21,971 bases of DNA from a virus, in UHGV virus genome UHGV-0067703, one strand, 5' to 3'. The position numbers were made by a program. Below, in pieces: positions 15,001 through 21,000 of this stretch (the first letter of the stretch is position 1; each line of letters starts with the position of its first letter).

Positions 15001-18000
15001 GAATGCTCTTTTGGGGTTGTCCAGACCAGATCTTCCATGTTGAACTCACTGGCTGTCGCGAGACGTAGCTCAGAAAGTCTGGCCCCCCATAGCAATAGCA
15101 ATTGATGTAACACCTTGTTGGAAGTAACTACTTTTGAGTTCTCCAGCGCCAGCCAAATTTTTGCCAGTTCCGTATAGGTAAGTACACGACTCCCTACATC
15201 TGTTTTTTTCCCAATATTCTTAACACTAAGCTTGAGTAATTCGCATGATGGGATTAACTGGCGGCTGATACACCAGTTAATAACTGAACGCAGTTGTAAC
15301 AACAAAACACGAGCCTTTTTCTTGTTGAGGCTTTCTTGTTTGTCAAAGAAACGAGCCCATGCCGATACTGGGATACTGGCAACTGGCGAGCCTTCAAACT
15401 GTGTGTACATAGTGTTGTACACGACGGATCTGTAAAGCGTCTGTGTATTGGGTTTCAGATCAGTAACATACTTATCCCACCACTGATCCAGGCATTCTTT
15501 TAATGTCAGTTCGCCGTCACTGGGCGCAAAATAATTTTTAGGGTTAACTCCCTTCATGTACAATGCGCGCATCTCACCGACGATAACACGCGCGTCCTTC
15601 AGTGAAGTAGACGGATAGCGCCCGACAGTAAGACGTACTGGCTTACCATTCCAGCGATAACGGTACTGAAACGTGATAGTTCCTGCTGGAGTAATCCGCA
15701 CACTTAACCCGTCACCATCGGTGATTTCAGCAGGGCCAGAGTAGGGTTTTCCGTAGAGGCCTCGTAATTTGGTGTCGCTCAGTGCCAATGCTTTATATCC
15801 TGTACACAAGTTTATAATGTATTCTGTACTCAATATGTACGCATTAGCAAGTGAACAAAACACTTTTCAACGCAAAAGAAGATAATCAACCATGAACAAA
15901 AACGAACTTACACCTTGATTTTAAAACCATAAAGACGGTATTATCAGTCATATGGTGAACAACCAAAATCAATACGCAACAATGTCCTCTTAGTTAAATG
16001 GATATAACGAGCCCCTCCTAAGGGCTAATTGCAGGTTCGATTCCTGCAGGGGACACTTTAAAGACCTTTCTCTACATTTCACTTCATTACATAACAACTT
16101 AAAAAACAGTAAGTTATCACCGAATCGGCCTGATTTTCATTTCAGTTAATTTCATGACATTACAACCTCGTGATGGTATAAGTGATGGTATTCCCCAGTT
16201 CGATATGCAGATACCATCAATTTACCAAAATGAGTACAGATATGGCCATTAATGTGCTTTCCCCCAAACAGATAGAAAACGCCAAGCCGAAGACCAATGA
16301 TTACAAACTTACCGATGGAGGGAGTTTGTATCTACTGGTACGAAAGACTGGTGGAAAATACTGGCGTATGAATTATCGTTTTGATGGAAAACAAGTGACA
16401 TTGGCATTAGGGGTCTACCCAGATGTCTCACTTGCAACAGCGCGGAAACGGCGTGATGAAGCCAGGCAACTACTAGCCGATGGTCGTGATCCTCGTGAAG
16501 CAAAGAAACCCAAAAAGGAAGACCCAATTTCCCCCACGTTCGAGAGTGTTGCCAGAGAGTGGCATAGTGGAACGATGGGGCATCCTGAGTGGAAAGAGAT
16601 CACCCGTAAAAAAATTCTCCGAGAAATGGAAAACCACCTCTTTCCTGCCATCGGTTCAAAGCCTATCGATACGCTCAAAACCCGTGACTTGATGCCGATG
16701 CTGGTTGAGATGACTGAGAAAGGAATTGGTGCCACAACGAGCCGGGTAAAAACCACTATGACGAGCATCTTCCGTTATGCCGTGCAACGTGGAATTGTCG
16801 ATTACAACCCTGCCCACGATCTAAAAGGTGCAATTACGACCCCCAAAGTACGACATCGCCCCGCACTACCTCTCGAACGTTTACCTGAACTGTTAGCGAA
16901 AACGAGAAGTTACACGGGAAGACCATTGACTCGCCTAGCAGTTCTATTTTCCCTGCACACTTTTGTGCGATCCAGCGAACTACGACATGCCAGATGGGAG
17001 GAGATCGACATTGAAAATGGGCTATGGACGATACCAGGACAACGTGAAGAGATCGCAGGGGTTAAATTCTCAGAGCGGGGTGCAAAGATGGGGGCTGCTC
17101 ATTATGTCCCGCTATCTAGTCAGGCTATCGGGGTACTGGAGGATATAAGGAAAATCAGTGGTGAATATCTGCTGGTTTTCCCCGGTGACAGCAACCCATA
17201 TAAACCGATGAGCGAAAACACAGTTAATAAAGCACTGCGAACGATGGGTTACGACACTCAAAGTGATGTTTGCTTGCATGGGTTCAGGGCGATGGCCTGC
17301 TCTGCACTGACCGAATCAGGACTCTGGTCACGCGATGCAGTTGAACGGCAGATGAGTCACCAAGAAAGAAACGAAGTGCGGGCAGCATATGTGCATCTTG
17401 CGCAGCACATGCAGGAACGCCGCAGAATGATGCAATGGTGGTCTAATTATCTGGAACTAAATAAGGACGAATTTCATGCTCCTTATGACTTATCAGGTAT
17501 TAACATTATCAATTAAATTTTCTTATAATTTAAAACAGAGGTCATAATGCAGCATTCAAAAGAGAATGAAACTATATTCTTAGGAAATCTATGGATTGAC
17601 AAAAAAATACCACCATTAGAATATTGTTCATTTGAACGCGCTTCAAGACTATTAGAATGCGAGATTGATGATTTATTACACCTATACGAAATAGGCGCTT
17701 TTAATATCGCATTCAAGGCGGATGGACTTGCAGTTAGATTTAATGTTAATTTCCTCTATAAAAATCAGAAAATGGAAATTGACTTAATTCATCCCGTATT
17801 AACTAATCAATCACTAGAGATGGAATTTTCAACAATATGGTATGACCTTAAAGATGACTCCTTTGAACATTTTGAAAATGGGCTTCAAATTATAGGATTT
17901 GCCTGTGGTATTTGGTACGCCGATGATATGATAAGTGACATAAAAAATGGATTAGCTATAGATCCAGATTATGAATTCAGGCTTAAACCGGTAAAAATAC

Positions 18001-21000
18001 GAGATAATGTTTTGATGGCAACGGCCTCATATGAAGGAAATAAGGTCATTGATATTCCATTTGAAGATCTTCTTATCATGCGAAGAGATTTAGAGTTAAT
18101 ATGGAAATCAGTAAAAACTGGAATTCCTATGCCAAGTTTACTTACGAAAAGAATTTCATCTGAACCTAAAATCCCCAAGCGATTAAATAACACTGCTGAG
18201 CATCATGCAAAAAATAGGGAGGGGTTATTAAATGCAGCCATATATATATTAGCAAAATACCCAAGCGAATGTCGTGGTGAAAGAAAAGAGATAAGTCCTG
18301 AAAAGTGGACTAACGCCATAATTAAACATTTAGGAGAGCTACCTCCAATATTTATCACTAATGAACAAGAAATCTTAAGAAAATTACGATTAGCGGTTAA
18401 TCATGCGGGATTAAGACAAAAGGGGTAGACTGAAACAATCTACAGGTAGAGTTGATTACACTACCTTCACAGCATTTTGATATCCCCATAGTATCTGCCG
18501 TGTTCATTACATAACACGGCAGGTAATTTCATGACATTAAAAACTTATCCTATCACTGGACATGCCCGCCCACGAGCTACTGCTGACTTTTTGCAAATAA
18601 GTACGGTTACTCTCTGGCGCTGGGAAAAGAACAATCCTGAATTTCCCAAATCTATACGCATTTCAAAACGGGTATCTGTTTACGATGCACAAGAAATTAG
18701 GCAGTGGGTTAAAGCTCAATCAGCAGGATTGGAGGAAGTAGTGTAATGACAATATTAACAAAGCTGGGGAGAAAAAAGCCTCCCCAACGTATTAATCAAT
18801 TCTTTGGTTCTAAACCTCGGCTTTGTAACTCTTTGCGTAGAATGCGCTTGATCCAAGCCGCTAGCGATTCATCGCCATCCTGCTGTTGTGCTTGTTCCAT
18901 CAGTTCACGCAGTTCAGGGTCAAGTCGGAACTGGAATGGCGGATTCCCACGTCTTTCATTTTTGTGTGTTGACACGTCAATTACACCCATTGTAATGTAT
19001 TTATGTGTAATGACACATTACACACAGAAAAACAAAATAGCAACGCCCCGGAGTGTTTGCAGCACCACCGAGGCGTCTGACCAGCACGTTATATGAGGTA
19101 ACGAAGATGGCTAAACAGAAGTGTACCTGGTTATTTGCGGCGATCAACCGCAGTCAACGTAATGCCCGTCCGGTGATGTTAAGGATCACCGCAGATAACG
19201 AGCGATCAGCGCGGCGCAGACTTGCCCCGGACTATGTACTGAGCTTTGCCGGGCGCATTCCCTGCGGAGGTGAACATGCGTAATTATCCGCATCCCGGCG
19301 AACGCTGGCAGCATGAACGTGGCTGGACGGTCACGATTATCCGATTAATAGAAGCCTCGCCCTCTGTGGCGCTGGTTAATCCTGAATTCAGCTGTGAAGT
19401 GCTGATACGTCATGACAGCGACAACCAGCTTTCTTCCTGCCCTCTGGCATGGTTTGAACAGCGATATACGCGCCTGTTTGATGTACCGCTCTTTAAGCCT
19501 GCACCAGCTCCTGCAGGCGGTAGTGGTTCCGGCCCGCTGACACTGCATCCGTCTGTGCTATTTATCCGCTGGCGGGAGCGTAGCATATGGCGTTCTGCTG
19601 AGCCTGATGACGGTCACTATTCAAAGTTTCTCTGACAAAACACCGCTGAAAACGGAGTAATCCACAATGAATATTTCAAACGGGCACAACGGTGCTCAGG
19701 GCCAGACTTTGCCTGAAAAACACAATACCGGTGCTTTTGCCTATGGGTTGTCAGAGGACGGTTTCGGAAAGCTGACCCGCGCAAGAAATGCCTGCGACAT
19801 GCTCCAGCTTCTCTTTTCTGAATACCCGTCTCAGGCCGGAGCACTGGACGCAGGCTGTGCGCCTGGTGTCGCCGCGCTGATGGAGTACCTGCGGGCAGAT
19901 TTGACGGATATTGCACACAGCTGCGCACTGATTGAAGGAGGTGCCAGATGAACCAGCCGCAGGTTTCCATTTTCCCGGCAGAAATGACCACCGCGCTTTA
20001 CCGGCGGGCTATTGCTTCAGCATGGCGGCAGAAAATGCTGAACGAAACTGGCAGTGATCAGTATGGTCCGCACAGCCTGACGGTGGAGCGTATTGAAATG
20101 GCCATTGCGCTGCATATCGAGTGCGCACTGATTAACGAGTACGGCGAAGCACAGGGCGCCGCTGCCGCGCTGGCACTGCTGACTGACATGCTGGAGCCGT
20201 CACTGCTGACCGCGCCGCCGGTACTGACCGCGCGCGGTTGTGAAGTAATGGTGGAGATGTACCGCACGCTTCCGGCGGCCTTTGATGTCTGCTGCAGTAC
20301 CGGTGTGACGTTGTATCAGGGGGAAGTATGACAATACAGACGGTTACGCAGATTTCAGCCGCCGCGCGGGGGAAATGGCCCGTTATTCTGCAGATGCTGC
20401 GTATTGATGTACCTGAAAACGGCAGGCACGGTCCCTGCCCGAAATGTGGGGGCAAGGATCGTTTTCGCCTTGATGACCTTGACGGGCGCGGGACGTGGAT
20501 CTGCAGCCAGTGTGGCAATGGTGACGGTCTGGATCTGGTTAAGCTCGTAACCGGTTACAGCGTCAGAAAGGCTGCGCAGGAGGTGGCGCAGGTGCTTAAT
20601 GTGCCGGATGTGCAGGAACTGCCTGTTAAGCCTGCCAGACAAAAAGCCCCTAAACGCGACATGGGTCTTACCGTGGCGGCGCTGATGAAAGAGAGCCACA
20701 CGGGAGAAAGCGCCTATCTGACAGGAAAAGGGTTCGCCGGATACCCGGCCTCTCTGACCGGAAGCGTGCAGCATATCAGCGGTAAGGATTTTCCTGCCGG
20801 TTCCCTGCTGTTACCACTCACGACCAACACCGGAGCCGTGACTGGTGCACAGCTTATCGCCCCGACGGGTGAAAAAAGCATACTGCCCGGCAGCACGATG
20901 AAAGGCGCGTTTGTGTCGCTCAGCCCGTTACCGTCTGAACCACCGGTACAGGTGGTGATTACCGAAGGTTACGCTACGGCGCTGACGGTAAGTCAGCTCA

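What the first reader, a model, noticed from the sequence alone, without database searches (positions are those of the whole stretch)
16059..18540. Duplicated sequence blocks upstream of int and upstream of alpA
TTCATTACATAACA occurs at 16083..16096 and 18503..18516, and TAATTTCATGACATTA occurs at 16147..16162 and 18524..18539, in the same order in both places. The second block includes the alpA start codon, and upstream of int it starts a 33-codon ORF (16155..16253). At alpA the first block forms the loop side of a perfect 10-bp inverted repeat (18495..18522). A 10-bp direct repeat GTGATGGTAT also occurs at 16170..16179 and 16182..16191. AlpA is known to activate the integrase of CP4-57, so shared sites upstream of int and alpA are plausible AlpA or integrase binding sites. 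The blocks could instead mark the edges of an inserted int-cargo cassette.
Basis: partly seen in the sequence, partly recalled or inferred. Interest (0 to 1): 0.5.

Follow-up and report, generated by a model that had tools for sequence, protein, structure and literature searches.

The report
Satellite integrase and AlpA control sites
The repeated blocks are real and lie in the integration and excision control region of a small P4-like phage satellite inserted at the argW tRNA gene of E. coli; they are most likely regulatory sites of a known type, not a new kind of element.

Summary
All the repeats are at the stated coordinates and exceed chance. The region is the left end (attL) of a P4-like satellite in argW: tRNA core, integrase arm, int, a 293-aa gene, then alpA, a Vis/AlpA-family gene.

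GTGATGGTAT x2 plus an inverted copy (16211-16219) are integrase arm-type sites. They have the P4 attP layout. Two more copies sit at attR in a sister element. All copies change together with the integrase N-domain in one relative.

Block 2 upstream of int overlaps a predicted int promoter (-35 ATGACA, -10 TGgTATAAG). It is nearly invariant in about 20 related elements from several genera.

At alpA, block 1 fills the loop of a conserved hairpin that pairs with the Shine-Dalgarno sequence. Block 2 covers the start codon.

A 10-nt core, TTSATKACAY, is repeated in loop and start codon in two alpA clades with different sequences. The long int/alpA identity exists in only one clade. Block 1 upstream of int is not conserved.

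Best reading (about 0.45): shared boxes for an element-encoded regulator, probably AlpA, as with P4 Vis and KplE1 TorI. No binding was tested. The cassette-edge idea is not supported. Interest is modest.

The parts
15984..16056 (+). argW tRNA-Arg(CCU). Its last ~21 nt (16036-16056, TTCGATTCCTGCAGGGGACAC) are the att core shared with attR.
   Evidence: ARAGORN and Rfam. The core repeat sits at the far end of the sister element L001.
16067..16081 (+). Two TTTC(A) / TTCA boxes 11 nt apart. The bases are invariant in all 13 sequences of alignment A3.
   Evidence: Invariant columns T24-C27 and T35-A38 of alignment A3.
16083..16096 (+). Block 1, int-side copy (TTCATTACATAACA). It is lineage-specific and not conserved in position among relatives.
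16141..16164 (+). Conserved island TTCA-N6-TTCATGACATTACA. It includes block 2 (16147-16162) and the predicted int promoter -35 ATGACA (16154-16159). In this lineage block 2 is a 14/16 palindrome.
   Evidence: TTCAT is invariant and GACAT.ACA is >=90% conserved. In the 12 complete A3 rows the 14-mer TTCATGACATTACA is exact in 9 and differs by one base in L011, L012 and L035. The -35 reading is my own, taken from the sequence. Palindrome.
16170..16191 (+). Two tandem integrase arm-type sites (GTGATGGTAT, 12-nt register). The predicted extended -10, TGgTATAAG (16174-16182), lies in their junction.
   Evidence: Same layout as the annotated P4 attP arm repeats. They co-vary with the Int N-domain in L012. 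Two more copies lie at attR of L001.
16211..16219 (-). Third arm-type site, inverted, just before the int start.
   Evidence: (I15). The P4 equivalent is at 3915-3926 of L002.
16242..17516 (+). int, a P4-family tyrosine integrase. The start follows RefSeq for the sister element. In-frame starts further upstream exist at 16224 and 16182.
   Evidence: Pfam Arm-DNA-bind_3, Phage_int_M and Phage_integrase. 52% identity to P4 Int. RefSeq annotation in L001.
17547..18428 (+). 293-aa gene of unknown function. A homologue (24-31% identity) sits at this position in every relative.
   Evidence: No Pfam or PADLOC hit. AF2 model pLDDT 68 with no fold match.
18444..18466 (+). Small hairpin whose loop carries another core copy (TTGATTACAC, 18452-18461).
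18492..18525 (+). Conserved hairpin: 13 bp, 8-nt loop, -19.7 kcal/mol. Its 3' arm contains the alpA Shine-Dalgarno AGGU. Block 1 (18503-18516) fills the loop and the start of the 3' arm.
   Evidence: Fold, z = -6.3. Across 18 sequences 91% of cells pair, 3 pairs show compensatory changes, and G.U pairs are tolerated.
18524..18539 (+). Block 2, alpA-side copy. It covers the spacer after the Shine-Dalgarno sequence, the start codon and codons 2-3.
   Evidence: The loop and start-codon direct repeat is kept in two clades with different sequences.
18531..18746 (+). alpA, a divergent Phage_AlpA (Vis/AlpA family) winged-helix protein. It is the presumed recombination directionality factor and regulator.
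   Evidence: PF05930, 31.6 bits against a cut-off of 21. P4 Vis and CP4-57 AlpA are in the same family. Weak hit to PDB 8c3t, 'AlpA family'.

Best explanation
The interval is the attL arm, int, one further gene and alpA of a P4-like phage satellite integrated in argW.

Shown by comparison:
- The GTGATGGTAT repeats are integrase arm-type sites, laid out as in P4 attP.
- Block 2 upstream of int is a nearly invariant 14-nt island, TTCATGACATTACA. It abuts the arm sites.
- The inverted repeat before alpA is a conserved hairpin that pairs with the alpA Shine-Dalgarno sequence.
- A 10-nt box in the hairpin loop is repeated over the alpA start codon.

Inferred:
- Block 2 overlaps the -35 of the int promoter (ATGACA, 17 nt, TGgTATAAG). 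Integrase bound to the arm sites would then shut off its own promoter.
- The boxes (core TTSATKACAY, all on the + strand) are recognition sites for one small element-encoded DNA- or RNA-binding regulator, most probably AlpA.
- At attL that regulator would sit next to the integrase arm sites and over the -35. There it would help build the excisive complex and modulate int expression.
- At its own gene it would cover the transcript start region and the ribosome binding region, giving negative autoregulation.
- The hairpin would in addition keep alpA untranslated on transcripts that read through from int and the 293-aa gene.
For: Element identity. The sister copy L001 carries int, alpA, icd-like, DUF5375, a TOPRIM/DUF927 primase, sid, psu and delta between argW and dsdC. 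Its Int is 52% identical to P4 Int.

Arm sites. There are five copies: 2 direct plus 1 inverted at attL, and 2 direct at attR. Spacing to the core matches P4. In L012 all three attL copies become TTGCGGGTAT. Its Int N-domain is 72% identical to L011 while the rest of the protein is 91%.

Block 2 at int. TTCAT is invariant and GACAT.ACA is >=90% conserved in 13 aligned distinct sequences (12 complete) from E. coli and, by contig labels, Pantoea, Buttiauxella, Scandinavium and Citrobacter, plus metagenome contigs. The -10 and the flanks vary.

alpA leader. The hairpin is predicted in all lineages with compensatory changes. The loop box and start-codon box match 9-10 of 10 positions in clade 1 (TTCATTACAT / TTCATGACAT) and in clade 2 (TGATTACACA twice). 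Shuffle p is 0.001-0.03 per element.

Motif distribution. Six core copies lie on one strand within 2.5 kb, including one in a second hairpin loop. The AlpA helix-turn-helix residues are invariant across the four aligned AlpA sequences that span clades 1 and 2. That fits a conserved box.

Precedent. P4 Vis binds attP DNA by EMSA and footprint and also binds RNA (PMC2603039). P4 int is repressed by Int and Vis. In KplE1, also at argW, the int promoter lies inside attL and is repressed by IntS and the directionality factor TorI (PMC2951348, PMC7286903).
Against: - No binding or expression data exist for this element.
- The long int/alpA similarity is significant only in the window-type alpA clade (window, L003, L006). 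It is absent in L005, L007-L013 and CP4-57.
- P4 shows no such shared block, although Vis acts at both places there. Real directionality-factor sites therefore do not need 14-26 nt of identity, and the extra identity here needs another cause.
- Block 1 upstream of int is not conserved in position. Its exact match is a private allele.
- Clade 3 leaders lack the loop and start-codon repeat.
- The box does not co-vary with any protein, so the binder cannot be assigned. The 293-aa protein, a host factor or the integrase core domains are not excluded.
- The sigma-70-like promoter just before the hairpin (18466-18494) is not found in relatives.
Confidence: 0.45

Rival explanations
1. No shared factor. 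Each copy is kept for a local reason. Block 2 at int is the promoter -35 plus a site for some factor. The alpA copies are the hairpin loop and the translation initiation region. The long identity in this lineage comes from short-patch gene conversion between nearby repeats, or from drift on an already similar sequence.
For: - The long similarity is clade-limited.
- Block 2 at int is ancient and nearly invariant, whereas the alpA start region differs between clades. The alpA copy therefore looks derived.
- Block 1 at int is variable, and its 14/14 match is private to this window.
- P4, where one factor acts at both places, has no long shared block.
Against: - Two collinear matches (14/14 and 23/26) are far beyond chance.
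- Repeats of 14-26 nt are at or below the usual length needed for RecA-dependent conversion (general knowledge).
- The loop and start-codon repeat recurs in a second clade with a different sequence. This points to selection for paired boxes.
- The Pantoea element L006 still keeps CATGACATTA at both places.
Confidence: 0.3
2. RNA-level control. The boxes act in + strand RNA. They are shown in hairpin loops and at initiation regions. They are bound by an RNA-binding AlpA, as reported for Vis, or by an antisense RNA. alpA and a leader ORF or extended Int would then be co-regulated at translation.
For: - All six core copies are on the + strand, and two sit in predicted hairpin loops.
- The hairpin tolerates G.U pairs that would be mismatches on the other strand.
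- The ORF from the ATG in block 2 stays open up to the int start in 20 of 23 distinct int-upstream sequences. It is in frame with int in L009-L011.
- Vis is reported to bind int mRNA (PMC2951348, PMC2603039).
Against: - The predicted int promoter starts transcription downstream of block 2, so the int-side copies would be in RNA only through read-through from argW.
- There is no Shine-Dalgarno sequence before the 16154 ATG.
- Stops in the other two frames lie inside the conserved arm sites, so the open frame is weak evidence.
- No complementary copy of the blocks exists in the element.
- The satellite has no C4/isrK-type RNA.
Confidence: 0.12
3. The blocks are the junction scars or recombination edges of an inserted int-cargo cassette.
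For: - The blocks flank int plus the next gene.
- Elements are mosaic. L033 and L039 combine int regions and alpA types from different lineages.
- Homology to other elements resumes at 18492, next to block 1.
Against: - The variable segment starts at the 3' end of int (about 17455-17490), not upstream of int.
- The arm sites and int must stay next to the att core, as in P4.
- The gene in the variable segment is homologous in all relatives.
- Block 2 at int is present in every element, whatever its alpA type.
Confidence: 0.03

Closest known systems
Satellite phage P4: attP arm repeats, Pint, Int and Vis
   Same: - Integrase family, with 52% identity.
- tRNA 3'-end core.
- Two tandem arm repeats on each side of the core and an inverted one at the int start, with the same spacings.
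- A -10-like hexamer in the junction of the tandem repeats.
- A Phage_AlpA-family protein (Vis) that binds attP between core and int and lowers Int expression (PMC2603039, PMC2951348).
   Different: - Gene order differs. Here it is int, a 293-aa gene, alpA, the replication genes, then sid-psu-delta, all in one direction. In P4, vis is far from int and divergent from sid.
- AlpA is only weakly similar to Vis.
- P4 has no long block shared between Pint and the vis upstream region, and no hairpin pairing with the vis Shine-Dalgarno sequence.
KplE1 (CPS-53) prophage at argW: IntS/TorI control of PintS inside attL
   Same: Same attachment tRNA. The int promoter is embedded in attL. There is double negative control by the integrase (arm sites over the promoter) and by the directionality factor (PMC2951348).
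   Different: The integrase and directionality factor belong to other families. The TorI sites are known by experiment. No copy of the sites at the torI gene is reported in that paper.
CP4-57 AlpA and intA (E. coli K-12)
   Same: The order is int, one gene, then alpA next to a tRNA-like gene. AlpA controls int expression and excision (PMC8249747 table; PMC2603039 references).
   Different: CP4-57 shows no significant sequence shared between the intA-upstream and alpA-upstream regions. Its AlpA is not detectably similar to the window AlpA in a pairwise comparison. AlpA is described there as an activator.
Pseudomonas aeruginosa AlpA antiterminator and its binding element
   Same: The same Pfam family. 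The binding element lies inside a promoter (PMC7969949, PMC9371919).
   Different: The element GGGACGN5GGTA is not present near int or alpA, and its count in the window is not clearly above chance. No intrinsic terminator follows the predicted promoters.
IS10-type fold-back inhibition of translation on read-through transcripts
   Same: A hairpin pairs with the ribosome binding site of a gene that must stay silent when transcribed from outside (the mechanism is from general knowledge).
   Different: The defining feature is the gene's own promoter starting inside the hairpin. That is seen only as a weak consensus match in this window and not in relatives.

Membership tests
P4-type att site (integrase arm-type sites around a tRNA core) | Tyrosine integrase with an N-terminal arm-binding domain of the P4 family | tested here: met
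   Pfam Arm-DNA-bind_3 4.7e-27, Phage_int_M, Phage_integrase. 52% identity to P4 Int.
P4-type att site (integrase arm-type sites around a tRNA core) | Core equal to the tRNA 3' end and repeated at the other end of the element | tested here: met
   TTCGATTCCTGCAGGG(G)ACAC at argW and at about 27600 of L001, the sister element. attR itself lies outside the window.
P4-type att site (integrase arm-type sites around a tRNA core) | Tandem arm repeats on both sides of the core plus an inverted repeat at the int start | tested here: met
   Window 16170-16191 and 16211-16219. L001 27525-27545. P4 annotation and sequence.
P4-type att site (integrase arm-type sites around a tRNA core) | Arm sites follow the specificity of the integrase N-domain | tested here: met
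   In L012 all three attL copies switch to TTGCGGGTAT. Its N-domain is 72% identical to L011 against 91% for the rest of the protein. This is one lineage only.
P4-type att site (integrase arm-type sites around a tRNA core) | Integrase binds the repeats | not testable with these tools
   Needs EMSA or footprinting.
P4-like satellite | Core genes int, alpA, alpha-type primase, sid, psu and delta in one ~11-12 kb element | tested here: met
   RefSeq annotation of the sister element L001. The window holds int, alpA and the start of the primase. An epsilon homologue was not looked for. The gene order differs from P4.
Directionality-factor operator overlapping an int promoter inside attL (P4 Vis / KplE1 TorI paradigm) | The int promoter lies between the core and int and overlaps the arm sites | tested here: inconclusive
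   ATGACA, 17 nt, TGgTATAAG read from the sequence (16154-16182). The -35 part is conserved and the -10 is variable. There are no transcription start data.
Directionality-factor operator overlapping an int promoter inside attL (P4 Vis / KplE1 TorI paradigm) | The element encodes an Xis/AlpA-type factor | tested here: met
   PF05930, 31.6 bits against a cut-off of 21.
Directionality-factor operator overlapping an int promoter inside attL (P4 Vis / KplE1 TorI paradigm) | Direct-repeat sites for the factor between the core and the arm sites | tested here: inconclusive
   Invariant TTCA boxes sit 10-11 nt apart, at 16067/16078 and at 16141/16151. The 14-nt island is nearly invariant. The binder is unknown.
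Directionality-factor operator overlapping an int promoter inside attL (P4 Vis / KplE1 TorI paradigm) | The factor binds the sites and changes int expression or excision | not testable with these tools
   Needs EMSA, reporter fusions and excision assays.
AlpA-type antiterminator loading site (P. aeruginosa) | GGGACGN5GGTA-like element between -35 and -10, followed by an intrinsic terminator | tested here: not met
   No match near int or alpA. The window has 20 two-mismatch hits against 12.3 expected. No + strand terminator was found.
P4 CI / C4-type antisense immunity (repeated target sequences plus a complementary small RNA) | A complementary copy of the repeats in a small RNA gene of the element | tested here: not met
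   No Rfam C4 or isrK hit in the satellite; those hits lie in the neighbouring prophage. No inverted copy of the blocks exists apart from the self-palindrome.
Fold-back inhibition (IS10-like) | A hairpin pairs with the ribosome binding site | tested here: met
   Predicted in every lineage tested (8 sequences); in five the fold is stronger than every shuffle, while L005 and L037 are no better than shuffles. The 3' arm holds GGCAGGU. This is a prediction only.
Fold-back inhibition (IS10-like) | The gene's own promoter starts transcription inside the hairpin | tested here: inconclusive
   TTCACA, 17 nt, TAGTAT at 18466-18494 in the window. No equivalent in L003, L007 or L013.

The most novel reading that the evidence does not exclude
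The boxes are read in RNA, not DNA. A Vis-like AlpA, or another element factor, recognises TTSATKACAY shown in hairpin loops and at two near-identical initiation regions. One region is that of alpA. The other belongs to a leader ORF that overlaps int, or in some relatives is fused to it. One protein would then set the translation of both the integrase and the excision factor. The conserved hairpin would insulate alpA from read-through that starts at the tRNA or int promoter.
Probability: 0.12. Interest if true: 0.55.

Novelty: new member of a known kind. Interest (0 to 1): 0.3.

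Why it matters
P4-like satellites are reported in over 30% of Enterobacterales genomes (PMC8628076) and carry anti-phage genes, yet their excision control is known only from P4 itself.

This element gives a compact, testable map:
- integrase arm sites;
- a probable self-repressed int promoter;
- a nearly invariant 14-nt island;
- a conserved hairpin over the alpA ribosome binding site;
- paired boxes at alpA.

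If AlpA binds the boxes, the P4 Vis logic would extend to a second gene arrangement. In that logic one small protein acts at att, at int and at its own gene. It would also help explain how a satellite stays silent next to a strongly transcribed tRNA gene. This would refine known biology, not add a new principle.

Tried and rejected
- **Integrase as binder of the two blocks.** Rejected. In L012 every arm site changes and block 2 does not.
- **The small - strand YlcI/YnfO-like protein as binder.** Its own operator region (18975-19025) contains CATTACAC half-sites that resemble the boxes. However, elements with the other allele of that gene and a different palindrome keep identical int and alpA blocks, as L003 against L004 shows.
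- **The 293-aa protein as an HTH regulator.** Its N-terminus is conserved, but there is no Pfam hit, no profile match to AlpA, no PDB sequence hit and no fold match. The model has pLDDT 68. Left open.
- **Short ORF 16154-16252 as a gene.** It has no Shine-Dalgarno sequence and lies upstream of the predicted transcription start. Its conservation is explained by the arm sites.
- **Hairpin as an intrinsic terminator.** There is no U run.
- **Hairpin arms as a dimer operator.** The loop varies from 8 to 22 nt.
- **Antisense or C4-like RNA.** Not found.
- **P. aeruginosa AlpA element.** Not found.
- **A direct repeat at the left edge of the variable segment.** 17470-17494 resembles 18525-18549 at 72%. 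That is within the noise.
- **Literature.** The primary P4 papers (Cali 2004, Piazzolla 2006) are not held. The P4 facts are taken from papers that cite them.
- **More clade-1 diversity.** Genome, viral and metagenome scans gave only shallow variation.

Full report
**What is there**

- TTCATTACATAACA: 16083 and 18503.
- TAATTTCATGACATTA: 16147 and 18524. This pair extends to 26 nt with three mismatches.
- The 10-bp inverted repeat: 18495-18522.
- GTGATGGTAT: 16170 and 16182.

A local alignment of the int-upstream region against the alpA-upstream region scores 37. The best of 300 shuffles was 25.

**Context**

The window is E. coli chromosome.
- A tRNA-Arg(CCU), argW, lies at 15984-16056.
- To its right is a P4-like satellite. 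In the near-identical sister copy L001 it runs from argW to just before dsdC. Its genes are int, a hypothetical gene, an AlpA-type gene, an icd-like gene, DUF5375, a TOPRIM/DUF927 primase, sid, psu, delta and two further genes.
- The integrase has the P4-type arm-binding, central and catalytic domains and is 52% identical to P4 Int.
- The 71-aa AlpA is a weak but above-threshold member of Pfam Phage_AlpA. P4 Vis and CP4-57 AlpA are strong members of the same family.
- To the left of argW lies the end of a different prophage.

**The 10-bp repeats are integrase arm-type sites**

P4's annotated attP has this layout: two tandem 12-nt arm repeats, about 53 nt, the core, about 112 nt, two tandem repeats, about 15 nt, and an inverted repeat at the int start.

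The satellite has the same layout.
- The core is the tRNA 3' end. 113 nt further on come the tandem GTGATGGTAT copies.
- After another 19 nt comes the inverted copy, and then int.
- At the other end of L001, two more tandem copies sit about 55 nt before the repeated core.
- TGATGGTAY occurs nowhere else in the window: 3 copies against 0.23 expected.

In relative L012 all three attL copies read TTGCGGGTAT instead. Its integrase N-domain is 72% identical to L011 while the rest of the protein is 91%. CP4-57 shows the same two-direct-plus-one-inverted pattern with its own repeat.

**Block 2 upstream of int**

I collected about 20 distinct related argW elements.
- Sources are E. coli and contigs labelled Pantoea, Buttiauxella, Rahnella, Scandinavium and Citrobacter, plus metagenomes.
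- In the alignment of 13 of them, TTCAT (16151-16155) is invariant and GACAT.ACA is at least 90% conserved. Among the 12 complete rows the 14-mer is exact in 9 and differs by one base in L011, L012 and L035.
- A further invariant TTCA lies 10 nt upstream. Two more invariant boxes, TTTC and TTCA, lie 11 nt apart near the core.
- The sequence between these points, and the -10, vary.

Read directly from the sequence, the island contains ATGACA, followed after 17 nt by TGgTATAAG. That hexamer lies in the junction of the tandem arm repeats. P4 has TTGAAA, 18 nt, CATAAT at the same place.

I infer that this is the int promoter and that integrase on the arm sites represses it. That is the arrangement reported for P4 and KplE1 (PMC2951348, PMC7286903). 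The island is better conserved than a -35 hexamer needs. It stays when the arm sites change (L012). Some other factor therefore probably binds it.

**The alpA leader**

The inverted repeat folds as a 13-bp hairpin of -19.7 kcal/mol (z = -6.3). Its 3' arm holds the Shine-Dalgarno AGGU.

Across 18 distinct leaders:
- 91% of cells pair;
- three pairs show changes on both sides (CG to UA, GC to AU, UA to CG);
- single-sided changes are often G.U;
- the loop ranges from 8 to 22 nt.

An E. coli polymorphism in the 3' arm (C to T) keeps a G.U pair. The variable loop length and the G.U tolerance favour an RNA hairpin over a dimer operator. The hairpin has no U run, so it is not a terminator.

A sigma-70-like promoter ends just before the hairpin in this window. 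No equivalent was found in three relatives. There is no + strand terminator between the 293-aa gene and alpA. Read-through from int is therefore likely, and the hairpin would keep alpA untranslated on such transcripts. This is an inference.

**The boxes**

Within the alpA leader, a 10-mer in the loop is repeated over the start codon.

| Clade | Members tested | Loop box / start-codon box | Match | Shuffle p |
|---|---|---|---|---|
| 1 | window, L003, L016 | TTCATTACAT / TTCATGACAT | 9 of 10 | 0.01-0.03 |
| 1 | L006, L021, L033, L035 | mostly shifted registers, not the same two boxes | 8 of 10 | 0.07-0.11 |
| 2 | L005, L007, L009, L011, L012, L036 | TGATTACACA twice | 9-10 of 10 | 0-0.011 |
| 3 | L013, L037, L039, L042, L044 | none | 6-7 of 10 | 0.58-0.99 |

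Two clades thus keep a pair of boxes with different sequences, which argues for function.

The degenerate core TTNATNACAY fits block 2 at int and the loop box in nearly all sampled elements; single-base variants in L011 (int side) and in L005 and L009 (loop) fall outside the exact pattern. In the window it occurs six times on the + strand between 16083 and 18537. One of these is in the loop of a second small hairpin, at 18452.

**Limits of the int/alpA link**

- The long similarity is significant only in clade 1: window, L003, and L006 with p = 0.007. It is absent in clades 2 and 3 and in CP4-57.
- P4 has no such block, although Vis acts at both places there.
- Block 1 upstream of int aligns with variable sequence in relatives.
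- Twelve near-identical elements read ...TAACC at that spot, so the 14/14 match is private to this window.
- Block 2 is a 14/16 palindrome in this lineage only.

The conserved features are therefore the island at int and the paired boxes plus hairpin at alpA. The long identity between the two places is a lineage feature. It may reflect selection for a common binder, short-patch conversion, or both.

**Who binds**

- The integrase N-domain is excluded for the blocks (L012).
- The small - strand protein at 18796-18990 has its own palindromic operator that changes with its allele. The int and alpA blocks do not change with it.
- The helix-turn-helix residues of AlpA are invariant in the four aligned AlpA sequences spanning clades 1 and 2. 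That fits conserved boxes but gives no covariation test.
- The 293-aa protein has a conserved N-terminus in all relatives, but I could not show that it binds DNA.
- By analogy with Vis and TorI, I rank AlpA first (PMC2603039, PMC2951348).

**Cassette idea**

Nucleotide homology between elements breaks at about 17455-17490, the 3' end of int. It resumes at 18492 (L003, L035) or 18509 (L005, L039).

The variable segment is therefore the 293-aa gene alone. That gene is homologous, at 24-31% identity, in every relative. The blocks do not mark the edges of an int-cargo insertion.

**Verdict**

This is a new member of a known kind: a P4-type att/int/directionality-factor control region. It has a clear arm-site map, a probable self-repressed promoter, a conserved hairpin over the alpA ribosome binding site, and candidate regulator boxes. 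The identity of the binder, and whether it acts on DNA or RNA, remain open and need experiments.

Noticed in passing
window 10833-15980: The DNA left of argW is the end of another prophage. It has an integrase on the - strand (14619-15863) and an HTH_17 Xis-like gene (14453-14635). It also carries isrK (10833-10911), C4 antisense RNA (10937-11022) and sRNA-Xcc1 (11871-11954). The same junction, just before the tRNA 5' end, is found in 210 E. coli genomes, including O157:H7 and O121 strains.
   Followed up: partly
window 16054-16060; L001 about 27597-27620: The argW copy rebuilt at attL ends GGGGACAC followed by TTT, so it has no encoded CCA. The core copy at attR keeps ACACCA. The tRNA would depend on CCA addition after processing.
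   Followed up: no
window 18796-19025: A 64-aa - strand gene is YlcI/YnfO-like (below the NCBIfam cut-off). It faces a divergent region holding the perfect palindrome GTGTAATG-ACA-CATTACAC plus two more half-sites. Relatives with a second allele of the gene carry a different palindrome, ATGGTAATTACCAT. This looks like a repressor and operator pair for the replication operon.
   Followed up: partly
window 17547-18428: The 293-aa gene between int and alpA looks like cargo but is not. Every relative has a homologue at this position with 24-31% identity and a conserved N-terminal motif, W..PLEYCS..RA..LL.C..DL.H..IG. It has no Pfam or PADLOC hit. The AlphaFold model (pLDDT 68) has no fold match. 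It is the most variable segment of the element.
   Followed up: partly
L033 about 340-560: A gut metagenome contig carries tandem arm repeats, the core, the int-side arm and int in one piece. That is an attP-like junction. It indicates either an excised circular copy or two elements in tandem.
   Followed up: no
window 16154-16252 and relatives L009-L011: The frame opened by the ATG inside block 2 has no stop before the int start in 20 of 23 distinct int-upstream sequences. In L009-L011 it is in frame with int, which would give a 30-residue N-terminal extension.
   Followed up: partly
window 18763-18788: A G+C-rich hairpin with T runs lies between the end of alpA and the end of the convergent 64-aa gene. 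It is terminator-like on the - strand.
   Followed up: no
window 13979-14374: A DUF1627-family ORF in the neighbouring prophage contains a run of PVQ tripeptide repeats encoded by a 9-nt tandem repeat.
   Followed up: no
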